Assembly (NCBI GenBank): GCA_000091205.1 | Contig: AP006497.2 | Length of the DNA: 64,000 nucleotides | Source of the DNA: Cyanidioschyzon merolae | Lineage: Eukaryota | Reading direction: 5' to 3' (one strand) | Shown here: piece after piece, positions 24,428-40,785 of the stretch | How positions within the stretch are numbered: position 1 is the first letter of the stretch | Layout: each line of letters opens with the position of its first letter | Notes under the pieces: model-generated | Database searches by the model: none | Seen by the model: the letters and a program-made list of their open reading frames with translations, nothing else | Told to the model about the DNA's origin: nothing | Translations under genes and position numbers: made by a program

Positions 24428-25715
24428 AGCGCGGGTCGTGTTCCGGACGCCCAGGAATGCCGTCCCGAGTTCACTTTGACAGCAGCGACGCTCGACAAAG
24501 CTGCTTTTCCTGGTTTACGGAGCAGCCTACAGCGGAATCGTACCCAGCGTAGCGACAGCGCAGCGTCAAGCGACACTGTTTCGCGGGTAGCGTTATCGCC
24601 GCGCGCTCTGCAGCGGGTGTACGCACAGGCCTCGACTCGACGACCGCAGACAGCGGCACACTACGAGGCCGCTATCTCTGCGTCCGAGGACAGCAGTGGT
24701 CATCCAGCGCCATGACTCCGTGTTTGTCCTGGGACTGGGGTGGACTCGAAAGTCGCAGAATCCCTTGATCCGTCGAGCGTCTATGCCCCCGACCACAAGG
24801 TCGGTCTGGAGCTGCTGGAGCGCACATATGTCTGCGCAGGCAGGCGCTAACACCTGTTTCCTGGACTGTGTAGTCTCTTGGTACTCGGGTGCCTCGCTGA
24901 ATCAATGTAGAGCCATTTAGTTTACACCATGAAAGAAAAGTGACGCTGAGTGCTCCAATGTCTGAAAAGGAAACGTATAAACTTGTGTGGAAATGTCGTT
25001 GGCGTGCATCCAGCGAGGCTTACGCGCTCAATGGGAAACAGAACTGTTGGCGTGCTTGCCATCGAAGGATGCCGTACGCCTGCATGCAAACTGACCTCTG
25101 TGGAGATGCTCGCCAGTTAGCACTCGGGGGATGCATCGTACACACCTAGCTTGTCGTCCGTTCGAGCTGCGTCTGTGGTCGACGAAATCACGACATGCTA
25201 GAGAGCGCCAGCACACACGGGTCACGACTTGAACACCGCAGCGCTGGGGGCGCGTACGCCCGTCGTGCGCAAGCGCCGTCAGTATCGACTGCTGCAGGTT
25301 GCGGTTAGCTGCTCGCCACAACAGTACGGGAGTTAGATAGCGTTTGACTCTTGAACGGTGTCGGTGGTAATGATGGAGTGCCCTGCGCGGGATCTGTGTT
25401 GCGTTGACCATGCTTAGTGACTGCAGCGCTTTTGTGGTCGTTCCAAGGTTCTGCTACCGGTTGCACGTGGGCGCGTCGCCGCCCGGAGCGTTGCAGTCGT
25501 CACGACGGCGAGTGGCTAGGTTACGGGAGCGCTCTGCTGGCACGCTTCCCTGGGCACGTGCAACATTCTGCAAGGCTGGGTGTCGTATTGGCAGCAGCAG
25601 TTGCAGCGTGTTGCTTCGCTGGAAGTCGTGCTTTCTTGCCGGTGAGGAGCGTTCGCACCTCCGCCAGCTCGGAAGCTTGGTACAACAACCGGGCGCTCTC
25701 CGTCAGCACGTAAGT

Positions 25716-26531
25716 ATGAGCTTGTTCTCAACGCCTGCTCAAGTCAGTTCTTATGAAATAATTGAGTCATATCCACACGACCCGAGTGCGTTCACGCAAG
25801 GCCTCGTCTACGCTGAGGCGCCGATTCATTCCCCAGACGAGGCCGAGTGGACGATGTTGCAAACCTCGACTGAGGTCTTTTACGAGTCCACCGGTCTTGT
25901 GGGGGAATCTTCACTGCGCTGCGTTCACAAGTTATCAGGGAAAGTCCTAAAATGTGTGCAGGTCCCGGCACCGCATTTCGCTGAGGGCCTCGCGCTCGTT
26001 CCACGACCCACTCGGATGCTGTTCCAGCTCACGTGGCTGACCCGCACAGCCTTCCTCTACGACGGTGTATCGCTGAAACAGGTGCGGGAAATACCGTACG
26101 ATCTCGAAGGCTGGGGAGCAACCTATGATTCCAATCGCCATTGCATCTACACGAGTAATGGAACCGACCGAATCCATATCGTGGACGCAGACACCTTCGA
26201 GATCCTGGACCAAGTTCGGGTCCGTTCGAGTCCGTACAAGTTCTCGCGCTCTTGCCCGACATTGTGGTACCTGAACGATCTCGAAATGATTCCCGATACT
26301 GACGAGCTCTGGTGCAACGTTTTCTTCAGTGACTATGTTGCGGTTGTGGATCCAGCGTCATGGGAACTGAAACGATGGATTGACCTGCGCGGTTTACTCT
26401 TACCCGAGCATTGCCTGCCTTGCCATGAAGTGGATGTCTTGAATGGACTGGCCTGGGACAGAAATCGGCAACTGATGTACGTGACCGGGAAACGCTGGCC
26501 GCGAATGTATGCCATTCGAGAACGCCCATAG
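25716..26531 (+). CDS. Plant/bacterial-type glutaminyl-peptide cyclotransferase (beta-propeller QC), paralog 1; ORF track extends upstream to 25404 without recognisable signal peptide
   Basis: YEIIESYPHDPSAFTQGL, the hallmark N-terminal motif of plant-type QCs, followed by propeller blades (YESTGLVGESSL..., WGATYD..., IHIVDADTFE..., LNGLAWD...MYVTGKRW). Start assigned to the first in-frame ATG before the conserved domain, at 25716. Confidence 0.7.
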   Translation: MSLFSTPAQVSSYEIIESYPHDPSAFTQGLVYAEAPIHSPDEAEWTMLQTSTEVFYESTGLVGESSLRCVHKLSGKVLKCVQVPAPHFAEGLALVPRPTRMLFQLTWLTRTAFLYDGVSLKQVREIPYDLEGWGATYDSNRHCIYTSNGTDRIHIVDADTFEILDQVRVRSSPYKFSRSCPTLWYLNDLEMIPDTDELWCNVFFSDYVAVVDPASWELKRWIDLRGLLLPEHCLPCHEVDVLNGLAWDRNRQLMYVTGKRWPRMYAIRERP

Positions 26532-34844: not shown

Positions 34845-35687
34845 ATGTTTGTCACATGTTTACTCGTGTCCGGTTCGAGGCGTAAAGGAACCGCTAACTG
34901 TGCATTGAACTTGCACAGAGCACAAACGGCAACCTGGGCAGCCTCGCGAAGCACGCAGCAGTTGCAAGTGCAAGGTTGGCGGAAACCCGTCAAACCAGGG
35001 GCATGCCAGGTCCTAAACGCCCAGTTAACTGTCTTTCGAAATCCGAAAAGCGGAGGGCCCGGCGCTCAAGCGAGCCGCGAGCCGCCGTCATTCGCACAGG
35101 TCTTGCGTGAAATGGCGCCCACTGGAAAACTCGACGACTTTGTCGTTTACGACTCAGACGGAAAACAACACCAGTTGCTCGATGTTGTCGGGAGTTACGG
35201 ACCAGAAGATAAGGATATGAAAGCAACGTTAGTGATCTGGCCGCGGCACTTTGGCTGCGTGCTTTGTCGCCGCCTCGTGAAAGAGCTCGCCGCCCGTGAA
35301 CAAGCCTTTCGACAAGAGCGCAAGTGGCGGCTCATGGTGATAGGTTGCGGCACTCCGGAGCAAGCTGCCAAGTTCCGTACGGATGCAACGCTTGGGCCCT
35401 TACCAGCGAGCATTCCGGTATACACAGATCCGTTGCGTCGTTCGTATCTCGCACTACGTTTCCGACGCGGTATTCTGTCAACGTTCAACTTGCCTGCACT
35501 ACAGAACATCTTGGACAGTTTTCAGAAAGGCGAGCGTCAGCGCTGGGATATGATTCCTCCGGACGCGTTCCAACAGGGTGGTATTGCGCTCATTGAACGG
35601 GATACCGGGGCACTCTGGATGCTGTACCGTAGTCAGTACGCTGGCGATGCGCCCACTGCAGAGGACCTCCTGAATATAGAACTTTGA
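34845..35687 (+). CDS. Peroxiredoxin-like 2 / AhpC-TSA-like thioredoxin-fold protein (PRXL2/FAM213-type, CxxC)
   Basis: WPRHFGCVLCRRLVKEL (CxxC in PRXL2-family context), conserved GCGTPEQAAKF and IALIERDTG blocks. The hydrophobic N-terminus (MFVTCLLVSGS) could be a signal anchor, as in PRXL2A. An alternative start is at 35112 (MAPTGKL). Confidence 0.6.
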   Translation: MFVTCLLVSGSRRKGTANCALNLHRAQTATWAASRSTQQLQVQGWRKPVKPGACQVLNAQLTVFRNPKSGGPGAQASREPPSFAQVLREMAPTGKLDDFVVYDSDGKQHQLLDVVGSYGPEDKDMKATLVIWPRHFGCVLCRRLVKELAAREQAFRQERKWRLMVIGCGTPEQAAKFRTDATLGPLPASIPVYTDPLRRSYLALRFRRGILSTFNLPALQNILDSFQKGERQRWDMIPPDAFQQGGIALIERDTGALWMLYRSQYAGDAPTAEDLLNIEL

Positions 35688-36289: not shown

Positions 36290-37555
36290 TCAGTGTGAGG
36301 CCATTTTACGAGCGACCAATTCACGTGTTGCTTGCACTTCAGCGGTTAGTTTCCTGGAGGTATCGTCGTTTTGCGTACGCGATATGGTCAAGCCATCTGC
36401 GAGCCGGCGACGTATTCGTACCAGCACCCGAACCAAGCCAGAAATTGCCATGACGAGTACGGCAACGATGAGCAAAGTACGCATCAGGCGGAGCAGCGCT
36501 CGCTGATGCCTCGCAGCGCCACGGCTGGTATGCCCAGCGACATGCTCACGCAAGCCGAGTTCCAAGGTGTAGAGCTTGCGCCACCATTTGCCCGTAACAT
36601 AAAGATTTCGTGGTCGATTCGCATCCCAGGCAATCCCATTGAGCACTGCATCCGGATGTACGGGGTGCACCGGTGACGGGCCCTGCGCTGTTCGCTCCAG
36701 TGCCAGCACCGACAGGTTCAGTTCACCGACAAACAGCGCATGACGCTGACGCTCCAGACCCGCGCAAATATCCATAACAACGATGTTGCTTGAAAGCCAG
36801 ATATTTGCCCATAATTCGGGGAAGCGTTCCGGCCGATTTGCAGCTGGTCTCATGACGACCTCCAGTTCGTTCAGAGACGAGACCTGCTCTCCCGAGCAGG
36901 GATGGTGTAACGCGGGAAAGCTCGTGAGCCATGCTAGTGTCCGGGGATGTCGCACTGTAATGATGCTCGATCCGTTGCTCATGAGGAAGCAAGCTGGCTC
37001 CTCATCTCGTCGAAGACAGTGCTCCGAGTCGGAGCAGGTCCATTGCCGCAACGCACCCGGGCAGGCTGCCAGGTGGTCCCAGTGGACTGCAGCGAGACCC
37101 CAGGCACCCGAGGGCCCGTACGGAATGTCCTGCCCAAAACGGTATCGGAGCTCCGTGCGATCGAAGGTTAGGGCACGTCCAGCGCTCAAGGTCAAGACGA
37201 CGATAGCATCGTCGAAGGCGCGGTATGCAGCACCTTCGGCAAAGAGGCTAGCAGGTTCCACACGCGCTGTCTGTAGGACGCGACCTGTTGGTAGTTCAAC
37301 GTGTTGCAGCCTCGAACGAAAACGAAGCCCGCTCGACTCGTATAATCGACTGCTATTGATGGGGTCAACGAAGAGACCCTGCGTAAACGTAGTCTCGTCG
37401 TGTGGGAGTGCGTTTAAGACGCGAAAGGGAATAGCGTGTTGAAGGTAGCAGACGCGCTGAGCGTCTGGCGCCCAGGCCCGGTGCAGCACCGCTCCAGAGA
37501 CGACAGCTACGGCACTTGCGATGAACAGAAAGAGCGTGTGGAGTGGTCTGTGCAT
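36290..37555 (-). CDS. Plant-type glutaminyl cyclase paralog 2 with N-terminal signal peptide and C-terminal transmembrane anchor plus charged tail
   Basis: N-terminus MHRPLHTLFLFIASAVAVVSGAV (signal-like), then NALPHDETTFTQGL hallmark motif and propeller blades (VLNGIAWDANRPRNLYVTGKWW). C-terminal LLRLMRTLLIVAVLVMAISGLV hydrophobic helix followed by RVLVRIRRRLADG... basic/coiled tail. Confidence 0.7.
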   Translation of the reverse strand: MHRPLHTLFLFIASAVAVVSGAVLHRAWAPDAQRVCYLQHAIPFRVLNALPHDETTFTQGLFVDPINSSRLYESSGLRFRSRLQHVELPTGRVLQTARVEPASLFAEGAAYRAFDDAIVVLTLSAGRALTFDRTELRYRFGQDIPYGPSGAWGLAAVHWDHLAACPGALRQWTCSDSEHCLRRDEEPACFLMSNGSSIITVRHPRTLAWLTSFPALHHPCSGEQVSSLNELEVVMRPAANRPERFPELWANIWLSSNIVVMDICAGLERQRHALFVGELNLSVLALERTAQGPSPVHPVHPDAVLNGIAWDANRPRNLYVTGKWWRKLYTLELGLREHVAGHTSRGAARHQRALLRLMRTLLIVAVLVMAISGLVRVLVRIRRRLADGLTISRTQNDDTSRKLTAEVQATRELVARKMASH

Positions 37556-39234: not shown

Positions 39235-40785
39235 CTAGCGGCGAGGAATTGCCCCGCTTCGACCAGACATAAGCTGCTGCATGACGCGCTGGAGGCCACC
39301 CGGACCGCTTCCCAGTTGTTGGAGCATGCGTGGGTCCATCATTCTTTGCATCTGCTGCTCCATAGCGCCTATATTGGGTATGCTGTTTGGGCCGGTACCG
39401 TGGCCAACGCCGCCGTGCCCGGGCTGCATCAGGTGCTTCATATTCTTCCCGATACGACTCCATGCCTTGCTGATCAGTTTGTATTGTGTGAGAACCTCAT
39501 CAACCTCCTGCACAGAACGACCACTACCACGAGCAATGCGACGTTTGCGTGAATCATCCCACCGCACTGAAGTACTTTCATCAAGCTCTTCCCGATTCAT
39601 GGAATCGAGAATGACGAGCATATTCCGCACTCGAGTTTGAGCGTCCTTCTCGGAGCCTTTGGGCAGTATCTCCGCCATGCCCGGCATCATGGAGGCGACT
39701 TTGCTCAGCGGCCCAAGCCGCAGCACATTCGAGTACTGCATCTGCATATCGCGCAGCGTCAGGATGCCCTGTGAAATGCGATTCATTTGCTCCTCATCGG
39801 GATTCTCCAGATCTGCCTCCGCAATGGTCGACACGAGACCACGCACGTCTCCCATGCCTAAAAGGCGTCCGACAAAACTCTGTACCTGGAACTCTTCCAA
39901 GTCGTCTAGGTGTTCGCCAGTGCCCAGGAACACGATCGGTGAATGGGTAGCGGCCACTGCGCTGAGGGCACCACCGCCACGGGCGTGGCCGTCCATCTTG
40001 GTGAGGATGACGGAACCCACTCGAACGCGCTGTTGAAACGCTCGTGCCTGGTCGTAAGCTGCCTGACCGATGGAACCGTCCATCACGAATATCACGTGAT
40101 CTGGAGTCAGCGCTCGGTCCAATTGCTCCATTTCAGCGAAGAGGGCTGCCTCCTGCTTGTGCCGTCCACTCGTATCGACCAGAATGACTTCGAAGCCCTC
40201 GCGACGGAATCTTTCGACGCCCTCGCTCGCAACCTTGACAGCGTCGGTCTCACCGTAGCGCCCATAAAAAGGAACACGTGCACGTGTTGCATTCTGTCGC
40301 AGTTGGTCGAAGGCTCCCGCTCGAAAGGTATCGGCACAAACGAGGCCGGTGCGGTATCCCTTGCGCTTGTAAAAATAGGCTACTTTGACACAGCTGGTAG
40401 TCTTGCCGTTTCCCTGGAGACCGACGAACATGATGACGTTTGATTGGCCGCGTTGTGGTCTATAGGGCGGTATGCCTGGGTCCAGCATACGACATAGCTC
40501 CTCGAAGACGGTTTTGTGGATGAGGCGGCGACGATTGGTGCCCGGCGGGAGCTCGGCTAGTCGAACGCGGTTCTTCACGCGCTGGCGCAGCTCCGAGACC
40601 TGTTTTACGTTGACATCAGCCTCGAGAAGGGCACGTGCTACCTCTTTTAGAGCTGCTTCCAAAGCTGTTTCATCTACGACGACTTGGTTGGTTAGCGACT
40701 GCAGCGCCTTGACGATTTTGGTTCCAAGTGTTTCGAGAACCATGAAGCTGTGCAGGTGGCGCCGAACCGCAACAGCCTCCAGCAC
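39235..40785 (-). CDS. SRP54: Signal recognition particle 54-kDa subunit (SRP54; N, G and M domains)
   Basis: N-domain MVLETLGTKIVKALQSL, G-domain GLQGNGKTTSCVKVAYFY, DTSGRH, TKMDGHARGG, and Met-rich M domain (MMPGM..., QMQRMMDPRMLQQL). Confidence 0.9.
   Translation of the reverse strand: MLEAVAVRRHLHSFMVLETLGTKIVKALQSLTNQVVVDETALEAALKEVARALLEADVNVKQVSELRQRVKNRVRLAELPPGTNRRRLIHKTVFEELCRMLDPGIPPYRPQRGQSNVIMFVGLQGNGKTTSCVKVAYFYKRKGYRTGLVCADTFRAGAFDQLRQNATRARVPFYGRYGETDAVKVASEGVERFRREGFEVILVDTSGRHKQEAALFAEMEQLDRALTPDHVIFVMDGSIGQAAYDQARAFQQRVRVGSVILTKMDGHARGGGALSAVAATHSPIVFLGTGEHLDDLEEFQVQSFVGRLLGMGDVRGLVSTIAEADLENPDEEQMNRISQGILTLRDMQMQYSNVLRLGPLSKVASMMPGMAEILPKGSEKDAQTRVRNMLVILDSMNREELDESTSVRWDDSRKRRIARGSGRSVQEVDEVLTQYKLISKAWSRIGKNMKHLMQPGHGGVGHGTGPNSIPNIGAMEQQMQRMMDPRMLQQLGSGPGGLQRVMQQLMSGRSGAIPRR

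What the first reader, a model, noticed from the sequence alone, without database searches (positions are those of the whole stretch)
36290..37555. Membrane-anchored plant-type glutaminyl cyclase (signal peptide, propeller, C-terminal TM helix, basic tail)
Plant/bacterial-type QCs are normally soluble secreted or ER-lumenal enzymes. This paralog has a clear signal peptide, the PHDETTFTQGL catalytic-fold hallmark, and an additional C-terminal hydrophobic helix followed by a highly basic coiled tail. That predicts a type I membrane-tethered QC, an unusual topology.

A second, much more divergent paralog lies only about 10 kb away at 25716-26531.
Basis: partly seen in the sequence, partly recalled or inferred. 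Interest (0 to 1): 0.5.

Follow-up and report, generated by a model that had tools for sequence, protein, structure and literature searches.

The report
Membrane-anchored glutaminyl cyclase, red alga
This is the annotated Cyanidioschyzon merolae gene CMO151C, a plant/bacterial-type glutaminyl cyclase with a secretion signal in front and one membrane-spanning helix plus a short basic tail behind; the layout is real, shared by related hot-spring red algae and uncommon in the family, but it is a modest variation on a known enzyme.

Summary
Window 36290-37555 (-) is an intact 421-codon ORF, identical to the annotated C. merolae 10D gene CYME_CMO151C (hypothetical protein; UniProt "glutamine cyclotransferase").

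- **Family:** it matches Pfam PF05096 (E 5e-37). The model is a five-bladed propeller matching all solved type I QC structures (TM 0.83-0.87).
- **Active site:** 8 of the 9 papaya QC active-site residues are kept; W83 is Leu.
- **Additions to the propeller:**
  - an N-terminal hydrophobic signal-like segment (residues 8-24);
  - a Cys-rich 35-residue insert;
  - a disordered linker;
  - a hydrophobic helix (360-379);
  - a 42-residue net-basic tail.
- **Conservation:** three other Cyanidiophyceae lineages have the same layout in conserved synteny. The propeller is 48-74% identical but the anchor and tail only 0-29%, so the anchor is kept as a property. That rules out read-through.
- **Rarity:** of 300 family representatives, 11 have a hydrophobic segment after the propeller, and 6 of those are this clade.

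Membrane tethering of QCs is already known by other means (bacterial lipoproteins, the Plasmodium N-terminal TM, human isoQC). Similar C-terminal anchors also occur in an amoebozoan and a diplonemid. I rate it a new variant of a known kind, of low-to-moderate interest. The "more divergent" paralogue (CMO146C) is in fact the more canonical one.

The parts
36290..37555 (-). Complete CDS of CYME_CMO151C (421 aa plus stop), a single exon
   Evidence: ORF listed. The exact sequence is XP_005537554.1 / UniProt M1VJK3, from a 902,900-bp C. merolae 10D record.
37469..37555 (-). N-terminal signal-like segment, residues 1-29 (MHRPLHT / LFLFIASAVAVVSGAVL / HRAWA)
   Evidence: KD peak at 6-24, score 2.08. 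AF2 helix at 5-28. A hydrophobic N-terminus is also present in P0002/P0196, P0359 and P0004 despite only 14-21% identity. Cleavage was not tested.
36551..37426 (-). Five-bladed beta-propeller QC domain, residues 44-335. It includes PHDETTFTQGL (nt 37373-37405) and the active-site equivalents F57, Q59, F105, E107, L123, W152, N229, W253 and K323.
   Evidence: Pfam PF05096. AF2 pLDDT is mostly above 90. Foldseek top hits are 3mbr, 3nol, 2iwa, 2faw and 3nok, TMt 0.83-0.87. Residues were mapped through the papaya QC numbering.
36986..37090 (-). Clade-specific Cys-rich insert, residues 156-190 (C165, C174, C180, C189), splitting the Pfam match into two stretches
   Evidence: It shows as the gap between the two Pfam/PDB matched stretches and is absent from the bacterial and papaya sequences. 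It is 34-66% identical among orthologues. All four Cys sit at matching positions in P0196 and P0359, but only C165 and C174 are invariant once Cyanidium caldarium is included.
36479..36550 (-). Low-confidence linker between propeller and membrane helix, residues 336-359
   Evidence: AF2 pLDDT is below 50 at 338-344. Identity among orthologues is 12-29%, and the linker is longer in Cyanidium caldarium.
36419..36478 (-). C-terminal transmembrane helix, residues 360-379 (TLLIVAVLVMAISGLVRVLV)
   Evidence: KD score 2.79, the highest in the protein. An equivalent segment is present in every orthologue at only 10-25% identity. Population variants change it only conservatively: I371V, G373C, V379I.
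36293..36418 (-). Predicted cytosolic tail, residues 380-421, starting RIRRR, net charge +5
   Evidence: Composition. Predicted helical at pLDDT 63-83. Orthologue tails of 28-48 residues all start with a basic cluster but are otherwise 0-29% identical.
25410..26531 (+). Paralogue CYME_CMO146C (373 aa as annotated). The QC domain starts near the Met at 25716. It has no hydrophobic N-terminus and no C-terminal extension.
   Evidence: PF05096 at E=1.3e-57. Exact match to XP_005537549.1. No KD peak. The same SRP54-QC ... EamA-QC synteny is seen in Cyanidium caldarium.

Best explanation
CMO151C encodes a type I (beta-propeller) glutaminyl-peptide cyclotransferase that is held on a membrane of the secretory pathway.

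**Shown:**
- the ORF and its family membership;
- the propeller fold;
- conservation of 8 of 9 active-site residues;
- the two hydrophobic segments;
- their conservation across Cyanidiophyceae.

**Inferred:**
1. The N-terminal segment directs co-translational translocation into the ER. It is probably cleaved near G21/A22 rather than at AWA|P.
2. The propeller then sits in the lumen or on the exoplasmic side. There its conserved cysteines can form disulfides and its conserved N-x-S/T sequons can be glycosylated.
3. Helix 360-379 acts as a stop-transfer anchor, leaving the RIRRR-initiated tail in the cytosol.
4. From this position the enzyme would cyclise N-terminal Gln/Glu to pyroglutamate on secretory and membrane proteins, soon after signal peptidase exposes those residues. 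This is analogous to lipoprotein QCs at the bacterial inner membrane and to Golgi isoQC in animals.
5. In a wall-less alga living at very low pH, tethering would also stop the enzyme being lost to the medium. This last point is speculation.
For: - **Family and fold.** PF05096 at E=4.8e-37. PDB sequence hits are to the four solved type I QC sequences only. AF2 mean pLDDT is 88.3, and the top five Foldseek structures are all type I QCs with TMt 0.83-0.87.
- **Active site.** F22, Q24, F67, E69, W110, N155, W169 and K225 of papaya QC (residue list from PMC9436314) map to F57, Q59, F105, E107, W152, N229, W253 and K323. They include the proposed proton shuttle E69 and the oxyanion residues N155 and K225 (PMC5837995).
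- **Anchor.** Hydropathy and the AF2 helix agree. The anchor is present in four lineages, with the propeller 48-74% identical and the TM and tail 0-29%. Thirteen environmental variants keep the 421-aa frame, with only conservative changes in the TM. Synteny SRP54-QC-AhpC/TSA_2 is conserved.
- **Lumenal orientation.**
  - Seven Cys positions lie at matching sites in the C. merolae, Cyanidiococcus and P0359 proteins. Five of them (C36, C165, C174, C220, C264) are invariant when Cyanidium caldarium is included.
  - The N-[SA]-S sequon at residue 67 is conserved in all four lineages and lies in a clade-specific 3-residue insertion.
  - The NGS sequon at residue 194 is kept in three lineages; P0359 has DGT there.
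- **Not a GPI signal.** 28-48 hydrophilic residues follow the helix.
- **Precedent for membrane-tethered QCs.** PMC5837995, PMC9436314 and PMC7948796.
Against: - No signal-peptide or topology predictor was available, and there are no localisation or activity data.
- Pro at +1 of the best-looking AXA site means the N-terminal segment might stay uncleaved.
- Both flanks of the TM helix are basic: five Arg in residues 341-359 and five in 380-394. The positive-inside rule therefore does not decide orientation on its own.
- Active-site W83 is Leu123 in C. merolae. It is fixed in all 13 variants, whereas the orthologues keep Trp.
- Between two near-identical strains the gene carries 7 nonsynonymous changes to 1 synonymous, against 12:13 in six neighbouring genes. 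This is only suggestive (Fisher p=0.098).
- No dilysine or other recognisable sorting motif is conserved in the tail, so the compartment is unknown.
Confidence: 0.7

Rival explanations
1. Same enzyme, but the N-terminal segment is an uncleaved signal anchor. The protein would then be a two-pass hairpin with both termini in the cytosol, and the lumenal propeller would be held at both ends.
For: - The uncharged N-terminal core is 17 residues long (L8-L24), longer than typical signal-peptide h-regions. AF2 models it as a 24-residue helix.
- The AWA site is followed by Pro30 (sequence).
- The Plasmodium type I QC is reported to use an N-terminal TM domain (PMC9436314).
Against: - Alternative small-residue cleavage sites exist in C. 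merolae (VSG|A, SGA|V), and Cyanidium caldarium has ASA|W.
- A second anchor would make the conserved C-terminal TM redundant.
- The N-terminal segment is very poorly conserved (14-21% identity), as cleaved signal peptides usually are.
Confidence: 0.15
2. In C. merolae the protein is a catalytically weakened or inactive QC-fold membrane protein. It could be a lumenal peptide- or N-terminus-binding factor that evolves under relaxed or altered constraint rather than as a working cyclase.
For: - W83 is replaced by Leu123, uniquely among about 37 aligned family members, which have W or Y there.
- The substitution ratio is 7 nonsynonymous to 1 synonymous against strain L001, the highest nonsynonymous load among seven neighbouring genes.
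- The Pfam score is much lower than the paralogue's.
- The clade sits on a long branch.
Against: - Eight of nine active-site residues, including E69, N155 and K225, are kept in all orthologues.
- Plasmodium QC is active with Y, Y and F at the three Trp positions (PMC9436314), so the pocket tolerates change.
- Polymorphic sites avoid the second half of the propeller entirely (0 of 145 positions).
- The N:S excess is not significant (p=0.098).
Confidence: 0.12
3. The C-terminal extension is not part of the protein (read-through, mis-annotated stop or unrecognised intron), or it is a cleaved GPI-attachment signal rather than a TM anchor.
For: The region is poorly conserved in sequence (0-29% identity).
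Against: - An open frame with a hydrophobic helix and basic start is kept in four lineages and 13 strain variants, with no frameshift or stop.
- TM substitutions are hydrophobic-for-hydrophobic.
- The deposited gene models in three species include it.
- 28-48 hydrophilic residues follow the helix, which is incompatible with a GPI signal. GPI signals end in the hydrophobic stretch (established knowledge).
Confidence: 0.03

Closest known systems
Papaya and bacterial type I glutaminyl cyclases (CpQC 2FAW/2IWA; Xanthomonas 3MBR; Zymomonas 3NOL; Myxococcus 3NOK)
   Same: Same Pfam family and the same five-bladed propeller (TMt 0.83-0.87). Eight of nine active-site residues are identical, and there is an N-terminal export signal.
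   Different: Those proteins end about 12 residues after the last blade (median over 300 homologues). This one adds a linker, a TM helix and a 42-residue tail, plus a 35-residue Cys-rich insert and a W83L change. Identity is only 23-30%.
Plasmodium QC (PfQC/PbQC, PMC9436314)
   Same: A eukaryotic type I QC with a membrane-spanning segment. It is experimentally active and acts on a secretory or surface protein (CSP).
   Different: Its TM domain is N-terminal, which implies a type II signal-anchor topology, and it has no C-terminal anchor. It has aromatic substitutions (Y, Y, F) at the three Trp positions, whereas here one Trp becomes Leu.
Bacterial lipoprotein QCs at the inner membrane (PgQC and predicted lipoprotein type I QCs, PMC5837995, PMC10653852)
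   Same: The functional logic is the same. The QC is tethered on the exoplasmic face of the translocation membrane, so it meets N-terminal Gln as soon as signal peptidase exposes it.
   Different: The tether is an N-terminal lipid on a lipobox Cys, not a C-terminal helix. PgQC itself is a type II (alpha/beta-hydrolase) QC.
Human isoQC (QPCTL), Golgi-resident (PMC7948796)
   Same: A membrane-anchored, lumen-facing QC isoform of the secretory pathway that exists alongside a second QC gene.
   Different: The fold is unrelated (a type II zinc enzyme) and the anchor is an N-terminal signal anchor.
Other type I QC homologues with post-propeller hydrophobic segments: Nematostelium gracile (P0050), Artemidia motanka (P0067), and the metagenomic P0145 and P0173
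   Same: A QC propeller followed by a C-terminal hydrophobic helix. P0067 and P0145 also have a basic cytosolic-type tail.
   Different: They are not the same clade: they lack the insert and fall elsewhere in the tree. This suggests independent acquisitions. P0050 has only 3 residues after the helix and so could be a GPI signal. None has been described in the literature I could search.

Membership tests
Type I (plant/bacterial) glutaminyl cyclase, Pfam PF05096 Glu_cyclase_2 | Sequence match to the family profile above the curated threshold | tested here: met
   128.2 bits against a cut-off of 22.3, E=4.8e-37. The match is in two stretches because of the insert.
Type I (plant/bacterial) glutaminyl cyclase, Pfam PF05096 Glu_cyclase_2 | Five-bladed beta-propeller fold | tested here: met
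   The AF2 model has mean pLDDT 88.3. The Foldseek top five are all solved type I QCs (E 2e-22 to 3e-17, TMt 0.83-0.87), with a clear gap to generic WD40/NHL propellers.
Type I (plant/bacterial) glutaminyl cyclase, Pfam PF05096 Glu_cyclase_2 | The nine active-site residues of papaya QC (F22, Q24, F67, E69, W83, W110, N155, W169, K225) | tested here: inconclusive
   Eight of nine are identical. W83 is L123 in C. merolae only; the orthologues keep W. E69, N155 and K225 are all kept.
Type I (plant/bacterial) glutaminyl cyclase, Pfam PF05096 Glu_cyclase_2 | Cyclisation of N-terminal Gln to pyroglutamate | not testable with these tools
   This needs an enzyme assay on the recombinant ectodomain.
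Type I (plant/bacterial) glutaminyl cyclase, Pfam PF05096 Glu_cyclase_2 | Structural metal (Ca/Zn) site on the propeller axis | not tested
Type I single-pass membrane protein (cleaved signal peptide, exoplasmic N-domain, C-terminal TM, cytosolic tail) | Single hydrophobic helix of about 20 residues near the C-terminus, followed by a hydrophilic tail | tested here: met
   KD score 2.79 at 361-379 and a 42-residue tail starting RIRRR. Conserved in all orthologues.
Type I single-pass membrane protein (cleaved signal peptide, exoplasmic N-domain, C-terminal TM, cytosolic tail) | Cleavable N-terminal signal peptide | tested here: inconclusive
   An n-region/h-region pattern is present and conserved as a property. 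No SignalP-type predictor was available. The AWA site has Pro at +1, and alternative sites lie at residues 21-23.
Type I single-pass membrane protein (cleaved signal peptide, exoplasmic N-domain, C-terminal TM, cytosolic tail) | Exoplasmic orientation of the N-terminal domain | not testable with these tools
   The only support is indirect: conserved cysteines and conserved N-x-S/T sequons in the propeller.
GPI-anchored protein | The hydrophobic stretch lies at the extreme C-terminus with no hydrophilic tail after it | tested here: not met
   42 residues follow the helix, and 28-48 in the orthologues.

The most novel reading that the evidence does not exclude
Cyanidiophyceae may have taken bacterial-type QC genes (one QC orthogroup is listed as a Cyanidium-lineage horizontal-transfer candidate in PMC6629376) and split the function between two compartments. 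One copy became CMO151C by gaining a signal peptide, a disulfide-rich insert and a type I membrane anchor, making it a resident pyroglutamyl-forming enzyme of the ER/Golgi or the naked cell surface of an acidophile. The other copy, CMO146C, gained an N-terminal, Phe-containing, transit-peptide-like extension and works in the plastid. That would give a eukaryotic counterpart of the bacterial 'Q-rule' machinery and the first organellar type I QC.
Probability: 0.15. Interest if true: 0.55.

Novelty: new variant of a known kind. Interest (0 to 1): 0.3.

Why it matters
The physiological roles of type I QCs in eukaryotes are poorly known apart from Plasmodium. A clade-conserved, C-terminally anchored form in a genetically tractable, minimal-genome alga would give a simple system for three questions: where pyroglutamate formation takes place in a secretory pathway, which proteins are its substrates, and whether tethering next to the translocon matters. 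It also shows a bacterial-type soluble enzyme being fitted with eukaryotic targeting and anchoring modules. The gain is incremental: the enzyme family, the chemistry and the principle of membrane-tethered QCs are all established.

Tried and rejected
- **Read-through or intron artefact.** Rejected on orthologue, population and gene-model evidence.
- **GPI signal.** Rejected because of the long hydrophilic tail.
- **Tail-anchored protein with a cytosolic propeller.** Considered unlikely. The helix ends 42 residues before the C-terminus, there is an N-terminal hydrophobic segment, and cysteines and sequons are conserved. It is not formally excluded.
- **Recent tandem duplication of the two window QCs.** The NJ tree gives each clade 100% bootstrap support, but only 10% for focal plus paralogue together. 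Both sit on long branches, so the origin stays unresolved.
- **Positive selection or relaxed constraint.** The 7N:1S count is not significant against the neighbouring genes (p=0.098).
- **Dilysine or other sorting motifs in the tail.** None is conserved.
- **Literature on CMO151C/CMO146C.** No paper in the held library mentions either gene. The supplements of the eLife HGT paper were not available, so I could not tell which paralogue is OG0006251.
- **AFDB fold library.** It was not available.
- **First tree script.** It timed out and was rerun with a faster distance routine.

Full report
**What is there**

Window 36290-37555 on the minus strand is an uninterrupted 421-codon ORF starting at the first possible start codon. 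An exact-sequence look-up identifies it as CYME_CMO151C (XP_005537554.1, UniProt M1VJK3) of Cyanidioschyzon merolae 10D. NCBI annotates it as a hypothetical protein and UniRef as glutamine cyclotransferase. Its neighbour SRP54 and the second QC gene also match this genome. The window is therefore nuclear DNA of an intron-poor red alga, and the deposited single-exon model equals the ORF.

**Family and fold**

- The protein matches Pfam PF05096 (Glu_cyclase_2) at E=4.8e-37, in two stretches.
- Among solved structures it matches only the type I QC sequences from Xanthomonas, Zymomonas, papaya and Myxococcus.
- An AlphaFold2 model built on a 34-sequence alignment has mean pLDDT 88.3, with the propeller mostly above 90.
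- The top five Foldseek hits are those same QCs (E 2e-22 to 3e-17, TM-score 0.83-0.87 on the target), well separated from generic propellers.

**Active site**

The nine papaya QC active-site residues are listed in PMC9436314. I checked their numbering against the 2FAW alignment. They map as follows:

| Papaya QC | CMO151C |
|---|---|
| F22 | F57 |
| Q24 | Q59 |
| F67 | F105 |
| E69 | E107 |
| W83 | L123 |
| W110 | W152 |
| N155 | N229 |
| W169 | W253 |
| K225 | K323 |

Eight of the nine are identical, including the proposed proton shuttle E69 and the oxyanion residues N155 and K225 (PMC5837995). W83 is Leu only in C. merolae; the orthologues keep Trp. Plasmodium QC is active with Tyr, Tyr and Phe at the three Trp positions (PMC9436314), so activity is likely here but not assured.

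**The additions**

Kyte-Doolittle scanning finds exactly two hydrophobic segments, at 6-24 and 361-379. The model shows a helix at 5-28, a disordered stretch at 338-344 and one long helix at 343-420.

Compared with 300 family representatives, which end a median of 12 residues after the final-blade TGKxW motif, this protein continues for 96 residues. The continuation is a linker, a TM helix (TLLIVAVLVMAISGLVRVLV) and a 42-residue tail that starts RIRRR and carries 10 K+R against 5 D+E.

A 35-residue insert (156-190) with four cysteines interrupts the propeller and explains the split Pfam match.

**Is the C-terminal anchor real?**

It is present in all of them:

- Cyanidiococcus yangmingshanensis (KAK4530416, 424 aa);
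- a third lineage (P0359, 417 aa);
- Cyanidium caldarium (CDCA08G2295, 443 aa).

Each has the N-terminal hydrophobic segment, the insert, a post-propeller hydrophobic helix and a 28-48-residue tail.

The genes sit in conserved synteny, SRP54 - QC - AhpC/TSA_2. Identity to the C. merolae protein by region:

| Region | Identity |
|---|---|
| Propeller | 48-74% |
| Insert | 34-66% |
| TM helix | 10-25% |
| Tail | 0-29% |

This is the signature of a segment kept for its physical properties. Thirteen full-length environmental variants of the C. merolae protein all keep the 421-residue frame. The three variable TM positions change conservatively: I371V, G373C and V379I. A GPI signal is excluded by the long hydrophilic tail.

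**Topology and mechanism (inferred)**

With an N-terminal export signal and a C-terminal stop-transfer helix, the propeller should face the lumen or exoplasm and the basic tail the cytosol.

Indirect support:

- Seven cysteine positions lie at matching sites in the C. merolae, Cyanidiococcus and P0359 proteins. Five of them (C36, C165, C174, C220, C264) are invariant when Cyanidium caldarium is included.
- Two N-x-S/T sequons are conserved. N67 is kept in all four lineages and lies in a clade-specific three-residue insertion. N194 is kept in three; P0359 has DGT there.

Caveats:

- I had no signal-peptide predictor.
- The tempting AWA|PD site has Pro at +1, which signal peptidase disfavours. 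Cleavage near G21/A22 is more plausible, and an uncleaved signal anchor (a two-pass hairpin) cannot be excluded.
- Both flanks of the TM helix are Arg-rich, so the positive-inside rule does not decide orientation.
- No conserved sorting motif in the tail identifies the compartment.

The likely job is pyroglutamate formation on newly exposed N-terminal Gln/Glu of secretory and membrane proteins. The tether keeps the enzyme at the membrane of a wall-less acidophile.

**How unusual is it?**

About half of bacterial type I QCs are predicted lipoproteins, 87% in Bacteroidetes (PMC5837995). The Plasmodium type I QC has an N-terminal TM domain (PMC9436314). Human isoQC has an N-terminal anchor (PMC7948796).

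A C-terminal helix is nevertheless rare. A profile search of 1.84 billion representatives returned 4825 family members. Among the 300 representatives I could inspect, 11 have a post-propeller hydrophobic segment. Six of these are the Cyanidiophyceae clade. The others are:

- Nematostelium gracile (Amoebozoa);
- Artemidia motanka (a diplonemid, with a tandem QC);
- three metagenomic proteins.

Several bacterial proteins have weaker C-terminal sorting-tag-like ends. The architecture therefore seems to have arisen more than once. I found no description of it in the searchable literature, and no paper mentions CMO151C.

**The paralogue**

The gene at 25410/25716-26531 (+) is CMO146C. It is the more canonical QC:

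- 196 bits to Pfam, against 128 for the focal protein;
- 40-43% identical to Acidobacteria and Chloroflexota QCs.

It is only 29% identical to the focal protein. A neighbour-joining tree supports each clade at 100% but their union at only 10%. Whether they arose by duplication or by separate acquisitions is therefore unresolved. Rossoni et al. (PMC6629376) list one QC orthogroup as a Cyanidium-lineage horizontal-transfer candidate; I could not determine which gene that is.

**Verdict**

- It is a new variant of a known kind, in an already annotated gene, of low-to-moderate interest.

Noticed in passing
window 25410-25715 (+), upstream part of CMO146C; L006:19653-20696 (-): The paralogous QC has an in-frame extension of about 100 residues before the conserved 'MSL' Met. 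It is R/S-rich and lacks a hydrophobic core. It begins MLSDCSAFVVVP in C. merolae and MAFRSPTFVLSP in Cyanidiococcus (P0226); from memory, this resembles the N-terminal Phe motif of red-lineage plastid transit peptides. The frame stays open for 102 codons (chance about 0.013 from base composition), and a similar extension is present in the Cyanidium caldarium gene model. This could mean a plastid- or organelle-targeted QC. Alternatively, translation may start at the internal Met and give a cytosolic protein.
   Followed up: partly
window 36290-37555 vs L001:10001-11266: Between C. merolae 10D and a 99.4%-identical environmental strain, the QC gene has 8 nucleotide differences, 7 of them nonsynonymous. 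Six neighbouring genes together have 12 nonsynonymous and 13 synonymous. Fisher p=0.098, so this is only a hint of relaxed or diversifying selection.
   Followed up: partly
window residue L123 of CMO151C (nt 37187-37189): The active-site position equivalent to papaya W83 is Leu in all 13 C. merolae-type variants, but Trp in the three other cyanidiophycean orthologues and W/Y in all other aligned homologues. This is a species-specific change in the substrate pocket.
   Followed up: partly
P0035 (194 aa, from the representative library), corresponding to window ~36290-36990 (-): One database gene call joins the out-of-frame ORF 36723-36992 (-) to the C-terminal third of the QC (…SAGTLPRMERQRHALFVGEL…). 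This implies a deletion or frameshift variant, or an assembly error, in some environmental contig.
   Followed up: no
window 34845-35687 (+) and 39235-40785 (-): The QC gene is flanked by an AhpC/TSA_2-family thiol-antioxidant-like gene and by SRP54. This trio is syntenic across C. merolae, Cyanidiococcus and Cyanidium caldarium. Having the SRP54 gene next to a secretory-pathway enzyme gene is probably coincidental.
   Followed up: no
P0036 (Grammatophora oceanica, 1013 aa), P0067 (Artemidia motanka, 685 aa), P0038 (503 aa): Several homologues carry two QC propellers in tandem. The diatom protein also has an N-terminal TM and a long acidic low-complexity region. Tandem type I QCs did not come up in the papers I read.
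   Followed up: no
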